Virus record (IMG/VR): IMGVR_UViG_2721755643_000006
Location: 1-49,995 of that record
Reading direction: 5' to 3' (one strand)
Length of the DNA: 49,995 bases
Source: a virus
Taxonomy: Duplodnaviria > Heunggongvirae > Uroviricota > Caudoviricetes
Under the pieces are notes generated by a model that was not told where the DNA came from, made no database searches, and was given only the letters and a program-made list of their open reading frames with translations. Positions within the stretch are counted from its first letter, which is position 1. Every line of letters begins with the position of its first letter. This document shows, in pieces, positions 41,923 to 45,655 of this stretch. Made by a program: the position numbers and the translations under genes.

Positions 41923-42384
41923 ATGGGCGTACTCGAAATCAGTGCTCTTAGAATTAAGATGCTTCTATTGGCAAAAGGCTGGAGCCAAGCAGAACTTGCG
42001 CGCAGAATTGGTATTGCTCAACAATCCGTCCAAAGGTGGGTTTGTGGCATCTCAAGCCCTACAGCAGCCAACCTAGATAAACTATCTGATGTGACTGGAT
42101 TTCCTCAGTATTGGTTTTTCTTACCATTAAATGAAGAAAATAAGGACAGGGCACAGGATATATTAAAAATAACCCCTACGCAAAAGGAACTACTTCAAAC
42201 ATTTGAGGCATTTCCAGAGGAAGAGCAACAGCAAATGCTTAAAGATATGAAGGAGAAAAAAGAGACAATGGATCGTATAGTTGCAAAGTGGCTAGCAGCA
42301 CAACAAAAAGTTCCTAGGCAGGATTACCAGTACTTACAAGACGAGGTTCACCATGAACACGGCCCTTTCACCAATGGTTTCTGA
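41923..42384 (+). CDS. paaR2: PaaR2-like regulator of the three-component TA system (DicA paralogue)
   Basis: HTH (LLLAKGWSQAELARRIGIAQQSVQRWV) plus C-terminal domain paralogous to the upstream repressor; directly precedes paaA2-parE2. Confidence 0.75.
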   Translation: MGVLEISALRIKMLLLAKGWSQAELARRIGIAQQSVQRWVCGISSPTAANLDKLSDVTGFPQYWFFLPLNEENKDRAQDILKITPTQKELLQTFEAFPEEEQQQMLKDMKEKKETMDRIVAKWLAAQQKVPRQDYQYLQDEVHHEHGPFTNGF

Positions 42385-42544
42385 ATTTGAAACCGTCGAG
42401 CAAGAAAATAGTTATAACGAATGGCTGCGTGCAAAAGTGGCCGCAAGCCTTGCTGATCCACGTCCAGCCATTCCCCATGACGAAGTTGAACGCAGAATGG
42501 CTGAACGCTTTGCTAACATGCGCAAGGAACGGAGCAAACAGTAA
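42353..42544 (+). CDS. paaA2: PaaA2 antitoxin
   Basis: MNTALSPMVSEFETVEQENSYNEWLRAKVAASLADPRPAIPHDEVERRMAERFANMRKERSKQ nearly identical to E. coli O157 PaaA2 as recalled. Confidence 0.82.
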   Translation: MNTALSPMVSEFETVEQENSYNEWLRAKVAASLADPRPAIPHDEVERRMAERFANMRKERSKQ

Positions 42545-42832
42545 ATGTTACCGGTTTTATGGCTCGAAAGCGCAGATGCCGACCTAGATAATATAACCAG
42601 CTATATTGCACGTTTTGACATAGATGCGGCAGAACGTTTGTGGAAACGCTTAAGGACTTGCGTCCTGCCATTATCTGAACATCCGTATTTATACCCGCCA
42701 AGCGACAGAGTGCCTGGTTTGCGTGAAATTGTAGCTCACCCCAATTACATCATTCTGTACCGCGTGACAATTTCAGGCATTGAAATTGTTAACGTAGTTC
42801 ACGCCCGCCGACAGTTCCCTGTAACACCTTAA
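42545..42832 (+). CDS. parE2: ParE2 toxin (RelE/ParE superfamily)
   Basis: 95-aa ORF whose start abuts the antitoxin stop (TAAATG). Confidence 0.82.
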   Translation: MLPVLWLESADADLDNITSYIARFDIDAAERLWKRLRTCVLPLSEHPYLYPPSDRVPGLREIVAHPNYIILYRVTISGIEIVNVVHARRQFPVTP

Positions 42833-43631: not shown

Positions 43632-43653
43632 TAGCTAACCAACGAGGCTAATA

Positions 43654-43983
43654 ATGGAATTTAAAGATTTACCAATGCCATTCCAGGAAATGGCAGCGAA
43701 TATAGTTCGTTCCCAACTGGCGACTCTTGACCTGAGTACCGTAGAAAAAGAAACCATCGATACTATATCCGGTAACGTGCGTCGTGCCTTTATCGGTCTG
43801 TACGAAGAGAAGCAGCTCTCTGATAACCAGGATTTACATGAAAAATACTTCCTGGATCTAATGGACATCATTGATAAGGGGTTTGGCTTGTTAATGAAAA
43901 AGAAAGGGATTCGAATAGAACCCCTTGAAAATTACTTTGCAACAAAAAGCATTAATTCTTTTGATTCAAAACAAGAGAATTAA
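43654..43983 (+). CDS. Hypothetical protein (109 aa)
   Basis: GAGG 8 nt upstream of ATG; AT-rich; no family recognised. Confidence 0.5.
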   Translation: MEFKDLPMPFQEMAANIVRSQLATLDLSTVEKETIDTISGNVRRAFIGLYEEKQLSDNQDLHEKYFLDLMDIIDKGFGLLMKKKGIRIEPLENYFATKSINSFDSKQEN

Positions 43984-44227
43984 TTACAGATTTAACATGC
44001 TCTTTCTCATGATTGAAGCTCTCATGATTGAAAGTGCCTGGTTGAAGCGAGTCGATATAATCAACAAGACTCTGTCGTACGACTTCATTTTTATCCATTA
44101 CAGATGCAAGAAATGAAATTGCTAAAAGAGTTATATCACTACGCGCCGCAGCATGCTGCAATGCTTTATCAAAATTATTAATCTGGCGTATCAGGGAGTT
44201 AATGATTTCATCATTTTCAGTCGACAT
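43952..44227 (-). CDS. Hypothetical protein (91 aa), antisense to the early-left operon
   Basis: ATG at 44225-44227 preceded by AGGAGGG with 5-nt spacing; 3' ends of this and the preceding + gene overlap. Confidence 0.5.
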   Translation of the reverse strand: MSTENDEIINSLIRQINNFDKALQHAAARSDITLLAISFLASVMDKNEVVRQSLVDYIDSLQPGTFNHESFNHEKEHVKSVINSLVLNQKN

Positions 44228-44554
44228 TTCACCCTCCTGAGGGTTGGTGATTAAGGAGTTCTCCACGGGTGAGGTGGAGTGCGTGCGCCGGACACGGGTG
44301 AGCATCCGGCACTGACAGTTTACTGAAAGGATATTTCCCTGAAAAGTCAGACCATAACGCGAAAGCGCACGGCGAGGTAGCTGGTTCATAGATAGCCTGT
44401 CGTTAAATTATCGTCGACCGTACGCTTCCGGTTGTGGCAATCCGCGAAATGGCGCGGCGGTAAGTATGGCAGGGGTACTATTCTCCCTCCCCTGTGGAGC
44501 ACCGGGTTGTCAGGTTGACCATACGCTTAAGTGACAACCCCGCTGCAACAACCC

Positions 44555-44616
44555 ATGTTGATTACCTTTTGGCGGGTATCCGTTTTTTGTTTTCCCTTGT
44601 GATACCCGCCCTTTTT
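44555..44616 (+). ncRNA. dicF: DicF-like small RNA with intrinsic terminator
   Basis: TTTGGCGGGTATC...GATACCCGCCCTTTTTAAAGTGAATTTTGTGATG resembles E. coli dicF and its 3' flank as recalled; hairpin 44571-44610 followed by CTTTTT; upstream of dicB; 5' boundary uncertain. Confidence 0.5.
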
Positions 44617-45097
44617 AAAGTGAATTTTGTGATGCGGTGAATGCGGCTCAGCGCACGCGGAACAGTTAAAAAGCGATTAGTTCCCACGTATCGGGTGGTT
44701 ATGGGTATCCCTGTATCCGGCGTTAATTGTTAACTGGTTAACGTCACCTGGAGGCACCAGGCACCGCATCAACAAAGTTCACTTCGGTGATGAAAGGAAA
44801 GAGAAAATGTTGAATGTAGCTATTGAAAACCAGAACGGGTGGAATTATAGTGCACCTGCACCTCATAAAACGGGTGCCGGGATTGGCCTCCTGTTAATCA
44901 CATTGGTGCCTGAACACGCGCCAAAAGCGTGTTTTTTGTTGCCTGCATTTCATCATTCAATGGCAGCTCAGGCGGGAGCTTCTCACGAAGCGCCGGGTTC
45001 CGATGTGACCGGTAAGGCCAATCCCGTCTGGGCTACCACCAATCGGATTGGCCTCTGCGGTGGTGGCAGTACTGCTTTCACATCGGAGGATGCCGTT

Positions 45098-45655
45098 ATG
45101 GCTACTATCACTACCCTTTCTCACCCTTGTGTAACCATCGAAAATGGTCGCGCTGTCACCACATCTGTCGCCATTGCGGAATTCTTCCGCAAAATGCATA
45201 AAGACGTTCTGAAAAAAATAGACAACCTAGAATGCTCTGAGAAATTTAGCGGGCGCAATTTTGCGCCCGCCGAATATCTTGATGAGCAAGGCAAAAAACG
45301 CCCAATGTACCAGATCACCAAAAACGGCTTCGTTTTCCTGGTGATGGGCTTCACAGGCAAAAAAGCCGCTGCATTCAAGGAAGCCTACATTGCTGAGTTC
45401 GACCGCATGGAGGCCGAACTGCGCCAGAATAACACCCCACCTGCTGACAAGATGATTCCGGGTGATGGTCGCACTCTGGTTGTTCACTTCGACAAATTCG
45501 GCAATGTCGAATTCACCGAAACCGTTCCTGATGGCGCACTGGTCTGTACCCTGGAGACTTTCCGGTTTTATCTGGAAAAACAGGGATGGACTCTTGTTAA
45601 CCGGGGCGCAATTAAAAATATGACTGTGGAACAATTACTCAAAATTCATTGTTGA
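45098..45655 (+). CDS. Rha-family phage regulatory/antirepressor protein
   Basis: Rha-like N-terminus (VTTSVAIAEFFRKMHKDVLKKIDNL) and the C-terminal domain shared with 31716-32276; GGAGGA 7 nt upstream; the longer ORF-track N-terminus is probably not translated. Confidence 0.72.
   Translation: MATITTLSHPCVTIENGRAVTTSVAIAEFFRKMHKDVLKKIDNLECSEKFSGRNFAPAEYLDEQGKKRPMYQITKNGFVFLVMGFTGKKAAAFKEAYIAEFDRMEAELRQNNTPPADKMIPGDGRTLVVHFDKFGNVEFTETVPDGALVCTLETFRFYLEKQGWTLVNRGAIKNMTVEQLLKIHC

What the first reader, a model, noticed from the sequence alone, without database searches (positions are those of the whole stretch)
43654..44300. Convergent, 3'-overlapping gene pair of unknown function inserted between ydfC and the DicF-like RNA
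In Qin-like prophages ydfC is followed directly by dicF-dicB. Here two extra AT-rich ORFs are inserted: a 109-aa + strand gene (43654-43983) and a 91-aa - strand gene (43952-44227) whose 3' ends overlap by ~30 bp. The minus gene has a near-perfect SD (AGGAGGG, 5-nt spacing) and its upstream region carries a direct repeat of CTCACCCGTG spaced 29 bp apart (plus strand CACGGGTGAG at ~44264 and ~44293). A strongly signalled antisense gene inside an early operon suggests an independently regulated accessory module.
Basis: partly seen in the sequence, partly recalled or inferred. Interest (0 to 1): 0.5.

Follow-up and report, generated by a model that had tools for sequence, protein, structure and literature searches.

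The report
Swappable antisense accessory-gene slot in prophage
The two extra genes are real; the minus-strand one is a self-contained accessory gene that sits where the related prophage Rac carries its superinfection-exclusion gene sieB, and it starts behind a conserved folded RNA leader that precedes at least eleven unrelated small genes in gut-bacterial prophages, none with a known function.

Summary
ORF109 (43654-43983, +) and ORF91 (43952-44227, -) overlap by 32 bp. Together with ORF91's Shine-Dalgarno (SD) site they form a clean 590-bp AT-rich indel (43652-44241) relative to K-12 Qin. Both ORFs are coding (dN/dS 0.2-0.5, no other open frame, PHROG families) and neither has a known function.

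The interpretation needs refining in three ways.

- The two genes are separable. ORF109-type genes occur with five different minus-strand genes or with none.
- The 'direct repeat' lies outside the indel. It is the loop plus 3' arm of two hairpins in an ~85-nt conserved leader. Covariation supports an anti-SD helix and a loop-to-spacer pseudoknot that cover the ribosome-binding site.
- The same leader, with its start codon at a fixed offset, precedes at least 11 unrelated small ORFs in prophages of Escherichia, Salmonella, Edwardsiella and Pluralibacter.

ORF91 has its own intrinsic terminator, encoded inside ORF109 as 'MKKKGIRIEPL'. Its homologues always lie antisense to an early lytic operon or beside the repressor or integrase. 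In Rac, sieB occupies the equivalent interval.

Best reading: a lysogen-expressed, translationally gated accessory gene that early-operon transcription would silence. An exclusion or defence role is inferred only. Expression, promoter and phenotype are untested.

The parts
43652..44241 (.). 590-bp indel relative to K-12 Qin. It holds ORF109, ORF91 and ORF91's SD.
   Evidence: BLASTN against Qin: the flanks are adjacent in Qin at 2562/2563. GC is 35-38% against 51% in the flanks.
43654..43983 (+). ORF109, a gene of the early-left operon (phrog_6937, function unknown). Predicted as three long helices, soluble, pI 4.9.
   Evidence: phrog_6937 E 4.8e-69. 233 homologues, all 'hypothetical'. dN/dS 0.16-0.5. 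AlphaFold2 mean confidence (pLDDT) 69.
43654..43818 (+). Conserved N-terminal domain of ORF109 (aa 1-55). It is shared by proteins with at least four unrelated C-termini.
   Evidence: phrog_1363, phrog_2151 and phrog_9419 match only aa 1-55/66. Alignments. DNA breakpoints at query positions 115, 162 and 183.
43819..43983 (+). Variable 'tail' of ORF109 (aa 56-109). Tail type A travels with the ORF91 family in an unrelated phage backbone.
   Evidence: 40% identity over 35 aa (E 4e-7) to the C-terminus of a 214-aa early protein in P2-like locus L097, a gene that overlaps an ORF91 homologue.
43952..44227 (-). ORF91, a counter-oriented accessory gene and a divergent member of the phrog_18692 family. 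Predicted as three helices, soluble, pI 5.4, with no transmembrane segment.
   Evidence: dN/dS 0.31 over 40 differences, and no other open frame. 28% identity, E 5e-6, to the type B 92-aa protein. Only 19 cluster representatives among 1.84 billion proteins. pLDDT 65. Maximum 19-residue Kyte-Doolittle hydrophobicity 1.43.
43952..43983 (.). 32-bp overlap of the 3' ends of the two coding regions.
   Evidence: An overlap is present in every allele: 11, 23, 32, 41 or 77 nt.
43894..43926 (-). Intrinsic terminator of ORF91: a 9-bp hairpin (43926-43904) followed by UCUUUUUCAU (43903-43894). It is embedded in ORF109 codons 81-91 (MKKKGIRIEPL).
   Evidence: Terminator scan. Fold -14 kcal/mol, z = -3.0. 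Comparable terminators follow the homologues in L097 and L088.
44232..44238 (-). Shine-Dalgarno AGGAGGG of ORF91. The same SD and ATG position is used by every cargo gene.
44234..44258 (-). Leader helix 3: anti-SD CUCCU (44258-44254) paired with AGGAG of the SD (44238-44234).
   Evidence: 5 pairs, 100% paired in 14 distinct leaders. The closing pair changes U-A to A-U in 3 sequences.
44261..44279 (-). Leader hairpin 2: CUCCAC[CUCACCC]GUGGAG.
   Evidence: Compensatory changes at 2 pairs (L097, L007, Edwardsiella).
44285..44312 (-). Leader hairpin 1: 11 bp with loop UCACCC. It contains the second copy of the repeat. Loop bases 44301-44297 are complementary to GGUGA at 44233-44229, between the SD and the AUG, forming a pseudoknot.
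   Evidence: Two invariant U.G pairs, a third G.U pair kept in 12 of 14 leaders, and a C-G pair that becomes U-G in 3. All of these pair only on the minus-strand RNA. Loop and spacer covary (UCACC:GGUGA, UUACC:GGUAA, UUAUC:GAUAA). Homology to leaders from other genera begins exactly here.
44317..44345 (-). Candidate promoter of ORF91: TTTTCA-17 nt-TAAACT, 8 of 12 matches, weak. The predicted transcription start is at the foot of hairpin 1.
   Evidence: Below the scan threshold. However, a -10-like box sits at the same place in diverged leaders, usually as an extended -10: TGgTATTAT, TGtTATTAT, TGtGATAAC, TGaTAAGCT. This is inference only.
44264..44302 (+).
   Evidence: Reinterpreted as parts of hairpins 2 and 1.

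Best explanation
ORF91 is the cargo of a swappable accessory-gene ('moron') slot on the antisense strand of the DicA-repressed early-left (dicBF-type) operon.

Anatomy, shown by sequence comparison. The unit reads, on the minus strand:
- a weak -10-like box;
- an ~85-nt conserved leader (44312-44228) with two hairpins, an anti-SD helix, and a pseudoknot between the loop of hairpin 1 and the SD-AUG spacer, which together cover the ribosome-binding site;
- an ATG at a fixed position;
- a variable coding cassette;
- an intrinsic terminator buried in the 3' coding region of the convergent early gene ORF109.

Mechanism, inferred.
1. The unit can be transcribed only while the early operon is repressed, that is, in the lysogen.
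2. Its translation is held low by the leader until something opens the structure.
3. Derepression of the early promoter sends RNA polymerase through the whole unit in antisense. That would shut it off by transcriptional interference and by forming double-stranded RNA.

This is the logic of sieB in lambda, P22 and Rac, and Rac carries sieB in the equivalent interval. The product is a small, soluble, mildly acidic three-helix protein with no enzymatic motifs, so it most likely acts by binding another macromolecule. The most likely role is a benefit expressed from the prophage, such as exclusion or abortion of superinfecting phage. ORF109 is an ordinary early-operon gene of mosaic build. Its tail may, or may not, be a partner of ORF91.
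For: Coding status and gene boundaries:
- dN/dS is 0.31 and no other frame is open.
- The 145-aa upstream extension is not conserved: in-frame stops lie 0-14 codons upstream in other alleles.
- In 87 loci the minus-strand gene always starts at the same base, behind the same SD.

The slot:
- Homology between alleles resumes within a few bases of the ATG.
- Among 5,426 complete E. coli genomes, the slot is empty in 2,333 and holds type A in 197, B in 125, C in 88 and D in 650.

The leader:
- The minus-strand fold has z = -5.0, against -0.1 for the plus strand.
- 97% of cells are paired, against 38-52% in slid controls.
- 5 pairs change on both sides; only 1 of 500 shuffles reached that.
- The G.U pairs fit only the minus strand.
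- Homology to Edwardsiella, Pluralibacter and P2-like loci starts at hairpin 1 and ends at the ATG.
- At least 11 unrelated cargo ORFs start 54-60 nt after hairpin 1.

Own terminator.

Context of ORF91 homologues:
- a Salmonella lambdoid early-left operon;
- convergent with a cI-type repressor (two contigs);
- next to the integrase of an island;
- a P2-like early operon after cox.
Wherever an early lytic operon can be identified, the gene lies antisense to it.

Comparison with sieB:
- In Rac, sieB lies between ydaF (89% identical to the window's ydfA) and the sRNA KilS (80% identical to window 44600-44784). It is antisense and overlaps the 3' end of ydaF.
- Lambda sieB likewise lies opposite to N.
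Against: - There are no expression data. No sigma-70 match of 9/12 or better lies upstream in the window; the best candidate scores 8/12.
- The leader is also kept in Qin and in type C' loci that have no minus-strand gene, so it may have another role, or an additional one, on the plus-strand dicF precursor.
- In Salmonella, one pair of hairpin 2 pairs only on the plus strand.
- There is no homology to SieB or to any defence, toxin-antitoxin or anti-defence family.
- Both structure models have low confidence and the fold searches are uninformative.
- None of the cargo families has a known function, so the functional class rests on position and orientation alone.
Confidence: 0.55

Rival explanations
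1. Cognate two-protein module. The variable tail of the early (+) protein and the convergent (-) protein interact, as toxin and antidote or as effector and self-immunity. The (-) protein would be made in the lysogen, and the (+) tail would be made on induction to neutralise it, or the reverse. This would resemble Esc neutralising SieB in P22.
For: - The 3' ends overlap in every allele.
- The type B tail exists as a stand-alone 71-aa gene in Salmonella and is still convergent with, and overlaps by 41 nt, the type B minus-strand gene.
- The type A tail recurs (E 4e-7) at the end of an unrelated 214-aa protein in a P2-like prophage, overlapping the closest of the distant ORF91 homologues, at 38% identity.
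Against: - The type A tail occurs with the unrelated type C minus-strand gene and with no minus-strand gene at all: 24 of 87 loci, and about 1,000 E. coli genomes.
- ORF91 homologues stand alone beside cI or an integrase, with no ORF109-like partner.
- Part of the tail's conservation (MKxKG...PL) is explained by the terminator embedded on the other strand.
- The co-inheritance may simply reflect the physical overlap of the two genes.
Confidence: 0.25
2. The conserved hairpins act on the plus strand, as part of the ydfC-dicF precursor of the early transcript (processing, stability or antitermination). They would not be a leader for the minus-strand gene, and the cargo genes would merely have landed next to them.
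For: - The element is retained at 86% identity in Qin, which has no minus-strand gene.
- Watson-Crick covariation is the same on both strands.
- In Salmonella, hairpin 2 has a C.A mismatch on the minus strand that is a U.G pair on the plus strand.
Against: - The G.U and U.G pairs in hairpin 1 (two invariant, a third in 12 of 14 leaders) would be C.A or A.C mismatches on the plus strand.
- The plus-strand fold is no better than shuffled sequence, z = -0.1.
- Two of the helices involve the minus-strand gene's SD and SD-AUG spacer and covary with them.
- In Edwardsiella, Pluralibacter and contig L100 the element occurs without the dicF spacer, and homology starts exactly at hairpin 1.
- Hairpin 2 is lost where the minus-strand gene is lost (type C').
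Confidence: 0.2
3. ORF91 is a chance open frame in AT-rich DNA, and only ORF109 is a gene.
For: There is no family annotation, the structure model has low confidence, the family is tiny, and no strong promoter is evident.
Against: - Purifying selection, with an intact frame across variants that are 77-98% identical.
- Homologues at 25-38% identity keep their length and motifs in other genera and other phage types.
- The start and SD are fixed and conserved.
- It has a dedicated terminator.
- PHROG families exist for all the alleles.
Confidence: 0.03

Closest known systems
sieB (superinfection exclusion B) of lambda, P22 and the Rac prophage, with the P22 esc and sas controls
   Same: - A single small gene lies on the strand opposite to the early-left operon, convergent with an early gene and abutting or overlapping its 3' end.
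- In Rac it lies in the equivalent interval, between the DUF1391 gene and the sRNA at the DicF position.
- In P22, expression comes from the prophage and is countered by an RNA made from the early transcript. This is from my own knowledge of Ranade and Poteete 1993; sas is also mentioned in PMC7067206.
   Different: - There is no sequence similarity.
- SieB is 162-192 aa with hydrophobic membrane segments, whereas ORF91 is 91 aa and soluble.
- Rac sieB has a different leader.
- No Esc-like internal product has been shown for ORF91.
Morons of lambdoid phages (Hendrix and Juhala concept)
   Same: - An extra gene lies between genes that are adjacent in related phages.
- It has deviant base composition and its own terminator.
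- It is oriented so that it can be expressed from the repressed prophage.
   Different: Here the regulatory 5' part (leader, SD and ATG position) is not brought in by each moron. It is a fixed, conserved platform behind which at least 11 unrelated coding cassettes are exchanged.
Type I toxin mRNAs (hok/sok-like), in which long-range pairing occludes the SD
   Same: A structured 5' region sequesters the ribosome-binding site, and the gene is covered by an antisense transcript.
   Different: - The product is not a short hydrophobic peptide.
- No dedicated small antisense RNA gene is evident.
- Toxicity is unknown.
Defence and accessory hotspots of temperate phages and satellites (P2/P4 hotspots, Rousset et al. 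2022; from my own knowledge)
   Same: Conserved flanks hold highly variable cargo, and many alleles circulate within one species.
   Different: - The cargo is single, very small ORFs (30-104 aa, once with a second gene).
- None matches PADLOC models.
- The slot lies inside an operon, on the antisense strand, and shares a leader RNA.
phrog_18692 and phrog_6937 (PHROG families of unknown function)
   Same: - ORF109 is a clear member of phrog_6937 (E 4.8e-69).
- ORF91's type B relatives are phrog_18692 (E 5e-62).
   Different: ORF91 itself scores only E 0.018 against phrog_18692. It is a divergent subfamily linked through pairwise and profile searches. Neither family has any annotation.

Membership tests
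SieB superinfection-exclusion protein | Gene antisense to the early-left operon, convergent with an early gene, in the slot between the first early genes and the downstream kil/sRNA region | tested here: met
   Rac sieB lies between ydaF and KilS, and both flanks are homologous to the window.
SieB superinfection-exclusion protein | Sequence homology to SieB | tested here: not met
   No Pfam, NCBIfam or PADLOC family reaches its threshold. The only PHROG with any support is phrog_18692, which has no annotation.
SieB superinfection-exclusion protein | Membrane protein with hydrophobic N-terminal segments | tested here: not met
   The maximum 19-residue Kyte-Doolittle value is 1.43 and the protein is predicted as three soluble helices. 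Rac SieB shows long hydrophobic stretches.
SieB superinfection-exclusion protein | Aborts superinfecting phage, with self-protection through Esc and sas | not testable with these tools
   Requires plaque and burst assays.
Moron (independent accessory transcription unit in a prophage) | Present or absent between genes that are otherwise collinear | tested here: met
   Clean indel against Qin. The empty junction is present in 2,333 genomes.
Moron (independent accessory transcription unit in a prophage) | Own terminator | tested here: met
   Hairpin 43926-43904 plus a U-tract. Comparable terminators occur in L097 and L088.
Moron (independent accessory transcription unit in a prophage) | Own promoter, active in the lysogen | tested here: inconclusive
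   Only an 8/12 match is present in the window. Extended -10-like boxes sit at the same position in diverged leaders. There are no expression data.
Moron (independent accessory transcription unit in a prophage) | Base composition different from the surrounding phage DNA | tested here: met
   35% GC against 51%.
phrog_18692 | Significant match to the family HMM | tested here: inconclusive
   The window protein scores E 0.018. 6 of 8 aligned relatives match, down to E 5e-62. BLASTP against type B gives E 5e-6.
phrog_6937 (ORF109) | Significant match to the family HMM | tested here: met
   E 4.8e-69 over residues 1-107.
Type II toxin-antitoxin pair | Co-directional bicistronic operon with a recognisable toxin or antitoxin domain | tested here: not met
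   The genes are convergent, and no toxin-antitoxin domain is found.
Type I toxin-antitoxin | Short hydrophobic toxin peptide | tested here: not met
   ORF91 is 91 aa, hydrophilic (GRAVY -0.31) and has no transmembrane segment.
Type I toxin-antitoxin | SD-occluding mRNA structure | tested here: met
   Anti-SD helix and pseudoknot, both with covariation.
Any Rfam family (for the leader) | Covariance-model match | tested here: not met
   Nothing on either strand of 44228-44345 at E <= 1.

The most novel reading that the evidence does not exclude
The ~85-nt leader would be a new class of cis-regulatory RNA: a translational gate shared by a whole set of unrelated small prophage effectors. It would keep them silent in the lysogen until a trigger, such as a superinfecting phage product, an sRNA or temperature, unfolds the pseudoknot and the anti-SD helix. 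The cargo genes, ORF91 included, would be new exclusion or abortive-infection effectors. Tails of early genes such as ORF109 would act as cognate self-immunity during the prophage's own induction.
Probability: 0.17. Interest if true: 0.8.

Novelty: new variant of a known kind. Interest (0 to 1): 0.55.

Why it matters
- The slot is occupied in about 20% of complete E. coli genomes (1,060 of 5,426), including 650 with the allele found in O157:H7 and O121 strains. None of its cargo proteins has a known function.
- The slot occupies the same interval as the sieB exclusion gene in Rac.
- If the cargo genes are exclusion or defence effectors, this slot is a compact and easily searched source of new ones. 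The hairpin-1 motif, or the leader as a whole, finds it in several genera.
- If the leader is a real translational switch, it would be a new cis-regulatory RNA, common to many accessory genes and absent from Rfam.
- The locus also shows an intrinsic terminator written into the lysine codons of a gene on the other strand. This constrains how both genes can evolve.

Tried and rejected
Searches that gave no function:
- Pfam, NCBIfam, PADLOC and PDB sequence searches of both proteins, of the family profile and of the other cargo proteins gave nothing above threshold.
- PHROG hits all carry 'unknown function'.
- The AlphaFold2 models have low confidence (pLDDT 65 and 69). Foldseek against the PDB gave only non-specific helical matches with E >= 1 (ribosomal protein bS20, AcrIIC4), which I disregard.
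- The literature has nothing on these proteins or accession numbers.
- tblastn of the type B homologue against 50,697 phage records gave no match. The cassette DNA matches phage records only over the first 115 bp of ORF109.

Leads rejected:
- A 1,482-aa HEAT-repeat protein in the exhaustive HMMER search is a repeat artefact.
- A weak IraP anti-adaptor hit (E 0.039, one family member) is not significant.
- The 145-aa upstream extension of ORF91, annotated in some databases, is rejected. The extension is closed by stop codons in other alleles, and the leader carries indels that are not multiples of three.
- Homology of the type C minus-strand protein to the ORF91 family is rejected (hhalign probability 0.4%).
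- Homology between tail types A and B was not detected.
- Rfam's DicF model does not match the DicF-like RNA, even at E <= 1.
Full report
**1. The observation**

- ORF109 is 43654-43983 (+) and ORF91 is 43952-44227 (-). They are convergent and their 3' ends overlap by 32 bp.
- ORF91 is preceded by CAGGAGGGTGAA-ATG.
- CACGGGTGAG occurs exactly twice in the 50-kb window, at 44264 and 44293. Chance expectation is 0.08.
- Against K-12 Qin, the window aligns up to 43651 and again from 44242, to adjacent Qin bases. The extra DNA is therefore exactly 43652-44241, 590 bp.
- ORF91 is 35% GC and the ORF109 tail is 31.5% GC, against 51% around them.
- NCBI's PGAP annotation pipeline calls both genes 'hypothetical protein'.

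**2. Context**

The region is the early-left operon of a Qin/DicA-type lambdoid prophage. In order it holds:
- an HTH repressor;
- a PaaA2/ParE toxin-antitoxin pair;
- ydfA (DUF1391), ydfB and ydfC;
- ORF109, with ORF91 on the opposite strand;
- a conserved spacer;
- a divergent DicF-like hairpin RNA;
- an isrK/C4/Ash-Rha module;
- dicB, a DUF1482 gene and an exonuclease.

**3. Both ORFs are genes**

ORF91:
- Comparing the window with an 80%-identical variant gives 40 differences, dS 0.37, dN 0.12 and dN/dS 0.31. None of the other five frames is open.
- Homologues at 25-38% identity keep the length (90-93 aa) and a set of conserved residues (R29, L34, S38, R51, E74, K75, S84).
- The longer 145-aa version found in some databases is not real. 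In other alleles the in-frame extension is closed 0-14 codons upstream, and the leader carries 1-, 2- and 5-nt indels.

ORF109:
- It belongs to phrog_6937 (E 4.8e-69), with dN/dS 0.16-0.5.

**4. The locus is a slot, not a single insertion**

I compared 87 related loci and annotated E. coli genomes.
- The (+) gene has a conserved N-terminal domain (aa 1-55) joined to at least four unrelated tails.
- Downstream lies one of five minus-strand genes, or none:
  - A, 91 aa (the window's type);
  - B, 92 aa;
  - C, 73 aa;
  - D, 77 aa;
  - E, about 100 aa, which PGAP did not annotate in L007.
- A and B are distant homologues (28% identity, E 5e-6). C is not related to them.
- Every minus-strand gene starts at the same base, behind the same SD. 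Homology between alleles resumes within a few bases of that ATG.
- Counts among 5,426 complete E. coli genomes: empty Qin junction 2,333, A 197, B 125, C 88, D 650.
- The window's tail type occurs with minus-strand genes A and C and with none. ORF109 and ORF91 are therefore separable.

**5. The 'direct repeat' is part of a structured leader**

Read on the minus strand, 44312-44228 folds far better than shuffled sequence (z = -5.0). The plus strand does not (z = -0.1). I aligned 14 distinct leaders, including Salmonella, a P2-like prophage and type E. The consensus structure has four elements:
- Hairpin 1, 11 bp with loop UCACCC.
- Hairpin 2, CUCCAC[CUCACCC]GUGGAG.
- A helix pairing CUCCU with the AGGAG of the SD.
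- A pairing I proposed between the loop of hairpin 1 (UCACC) and GGUGA, which lies between the SD and the AUG.

Pair counts for this structure:
- 97% of cells are paired, against 38-52% in slid controls.
- 5 pairs change on both sides; only 1 of 500 shuffles reached that.
- The pseudoknot covaries: UCACC:GGUGA, UUACC:GGUAA, UUAUC:GAUAA.

Hairpin 1 has two invariant U.G pairs, a third G.U pair kept in 12 of 14 leaders, and a C-G pair that becomes U-G in three. These pair only on the minus-strand RNA.

The 'near-perfect SD' is therefore predicted to be occluded.

**6. The leader is a discrete, widely shared platform**

- An exact-pattern scan for hairpin 1 finds it in E. albertii, Edwardsiella ictaluri and E. 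anguillarum, Pluralibacter gergoviae, and at least 120 IMG/VR contigs.
- In the distant loci, homology to the window begins at 44310-44315, the foot of hairpin 1, and ends at the ATG.
- Upstream there is only a -10-like box at a constant distance: TGgTATTAT, TGtTATTAT, TGtGATAAC, TGaTAAGCT, and cagTAAACT in the window. This is the pattern expected of a promoter followed by a transcribed leader. In the window the promoter match is weak (8/12) and it is unproven.
- At 54-60 nt after hairpin 1 there are at least 11 unrelated cargo ORFs of 30-104 aa. One of them is followed by a 156-aa protein with two hydrophobic segments that I read as transmembrane helices.
- 77 of 127 hits have no SD and ATG, meaning the slot is empty.
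- No cargo protein matches Pfam, PADLOC or the PDB, and all PHROG matches carry 'unknown function'.
- Rfam has no family for the leader.

**7. ORF91 has its own terminator, written inside ORF109**

- On the minus strand, 25 nt after the ORF91 stop codon, a 9-bp hairpin (43926-43904) is followed by UCUUUUUCAU.
- On the plus strand the same bases encode ORF109 residues 81-91, MKKKGIRIEPL. The U-tract is read as lysine codons.
- Similar terminators follow the homologues in L097 and L088.
- No plus-strand terminator lies between ORF109 and the DicF-like hairpin. The early transcript therefore runs antisense through the whole unit.

**8. Where ORF91's relatives sit**

The family is tiny: 19 cluster representatives among 1.84 billion proteins. 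It is absent from 50,697 deposited phage genomes. Its contexts are as follows:
- Salmonella lambdoid prophages: antisense in the early-left operon, overlapping by 41 nt a 71-aa gene that equals the type B tail on its own.
- Two contigs: beside a cI-type repressor and convergent with it.
- One genomic island: next to the integrase.
- A P2-like prophage: overlapping by 41 nt the early gene that follows cox. The C-terminus of that gene is homologous to the window's tail (E 4e-7).

Wherever an early lytic operon can be identified, the gene lies antisense to it.

**9. The sieB parallel**

- In K-12 Rac, sieB lies between ydaF (89% identical to the window's ydfA) and the sRNA KilS (80% identical to window 44600-44784). 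It is antisense to the operon and overlaps the 3' end of ydaF by 4 nt.
- Lambda sieB is likewise on the strand opposite to N and abuts its 3' end.
- ORF91 is not a SieB: it shows no homology and no membrane segments, and Rac sieB has a different leader.

**10. Most likely mechanism**

Shown here: the anatomy in points 4-8 and the positional equivalence in point 9.

Inferred:
- The unit is transcribed from its own weak promoter while DicA keeps the early operon silent.
- Translation is gated by the leader.
- Derepression of dicBp silences the unit by convergent transcription and antisense RNA.
- The small, soluble helical product acts by binding, most plausibly to exclude or abort superinfecting phage.

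Main rival (confidence 0.25): the (+) tail and the (-) protein are a cognate pair. The tail travels with the minus-strand gene across different phage backbones, which supports this. Against it, tail A occurs with other minus-strand genes or with none, some ORF91 homologues have no partner, and the embedded terminator explains part of the tail's conservation.

Second rival, which does not exclude the best explanation: the hairpins act on the plus-strand dicF precursor. [quoted passage not shown]

**11. Novelty and verdict**

The kind is known: an antisense accessory gene (moron) in the sieB position. Three things are new.
- The protein families have no described function.
- A fixed leader, SD and ATG platform sits in front of exchangeable coding cassettes.
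- The leader's structure is supported by covariation.

No expression or phenotype data exist, so the functional claim stays an inference. Interest is 0.55.

Noticed in passing
window 44566-44616 (+): The 'DicF-like' RNA here is a divergent variant. It keeps the terminator and downstream sequence of Qin DicF, but its body differs (GGCGGGTATC...GATACCCGCC long hairpin). Rfam's DicF model does not match it, even at E <= 1.
   Followed up: partly
window 44782-45639: A second clean indel relative to Qin lies between the DicF-like RNA and dicB. It carries Rfam isrK (44858-44937) and C4 antisense RNA (44956-45043), plus a sub-threshold c4-a1b1 target site. All three lie inside or ahead of a 282-aa Ash+Rha ORF (44807-45655). 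This looks like a P1 immI-like antirepressor control module.
   Followed up: partly
window 44313-44560: The ydfC-dicF spacer upstream of the leader is nearly invariant across cassette types and is also found in the P2-like contig L097. In K-12, the 5' end of the 190-nt DicF precursor, produced by RNase III cleavage, would map to about window 44425. The reason for such strong conservation is unexplained.
   Followed up: partly
window 42353-42832: A PaaA2-type antitoxin and ParE-type toxin pair lies directly after the prophage repressor gene, in the same operon direction.
   Followed up: no
L001 1011-3626 (NZ_CM177020.1): The E. coli prophage that is otherwise identical to the window over the 1.4-kb query (strain RMDEC364) carries an IS66-family element (ISCro1) between parE and ydfA. 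The window lacks it.
   Followed up: no
L007 2793-3095 (-): A roughly 100-aa minus-strand gene (phrog_8894) sits in the same slot and PGAP did not annotate it. Hairpin 2 of its leader has a completely different sequence but still forms a hairpin.
   Followed up: partly
L099 and L100, downstream of the leader: In Edwardsiella and in contig L100 the leader drives a proline-rich 30-32-aa ORF. This is followed by a 156-aa protein with two hydrophobic segments that I read as transmembrane helices (phrog_6315, unknown function), convergent with a cI-type repressor. This protein looks the most like a membrane-acting effector, though that is an untested impression.
   Followed up: partly
window 44623-44776 (+): A sub-threshold Rfam match to STnc100 (34.6 bits against a gathering score of 47) lies in the stretch between the DicF-like terminator and the isrK module.
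   Followed up: no
proteins P0091 and P0094 (relatives of ORF109): Some relatives replace residues 8-31 of the conserved N-terminal domain with an unrelated stretch (KEIQTIAATTLGDSLVKIDPAYTK). The (+) gene is therefore mosaic at more than one breakpoint.
   Followed up: no
L100 (labelled Chryseobacterium sp.) and L103 (labelled Collinsella MAG): Enterobacterial prophage sequence appears in assemblies labelled as unrelated phyla. These are probably contaminating contigs.
   Followed up: no
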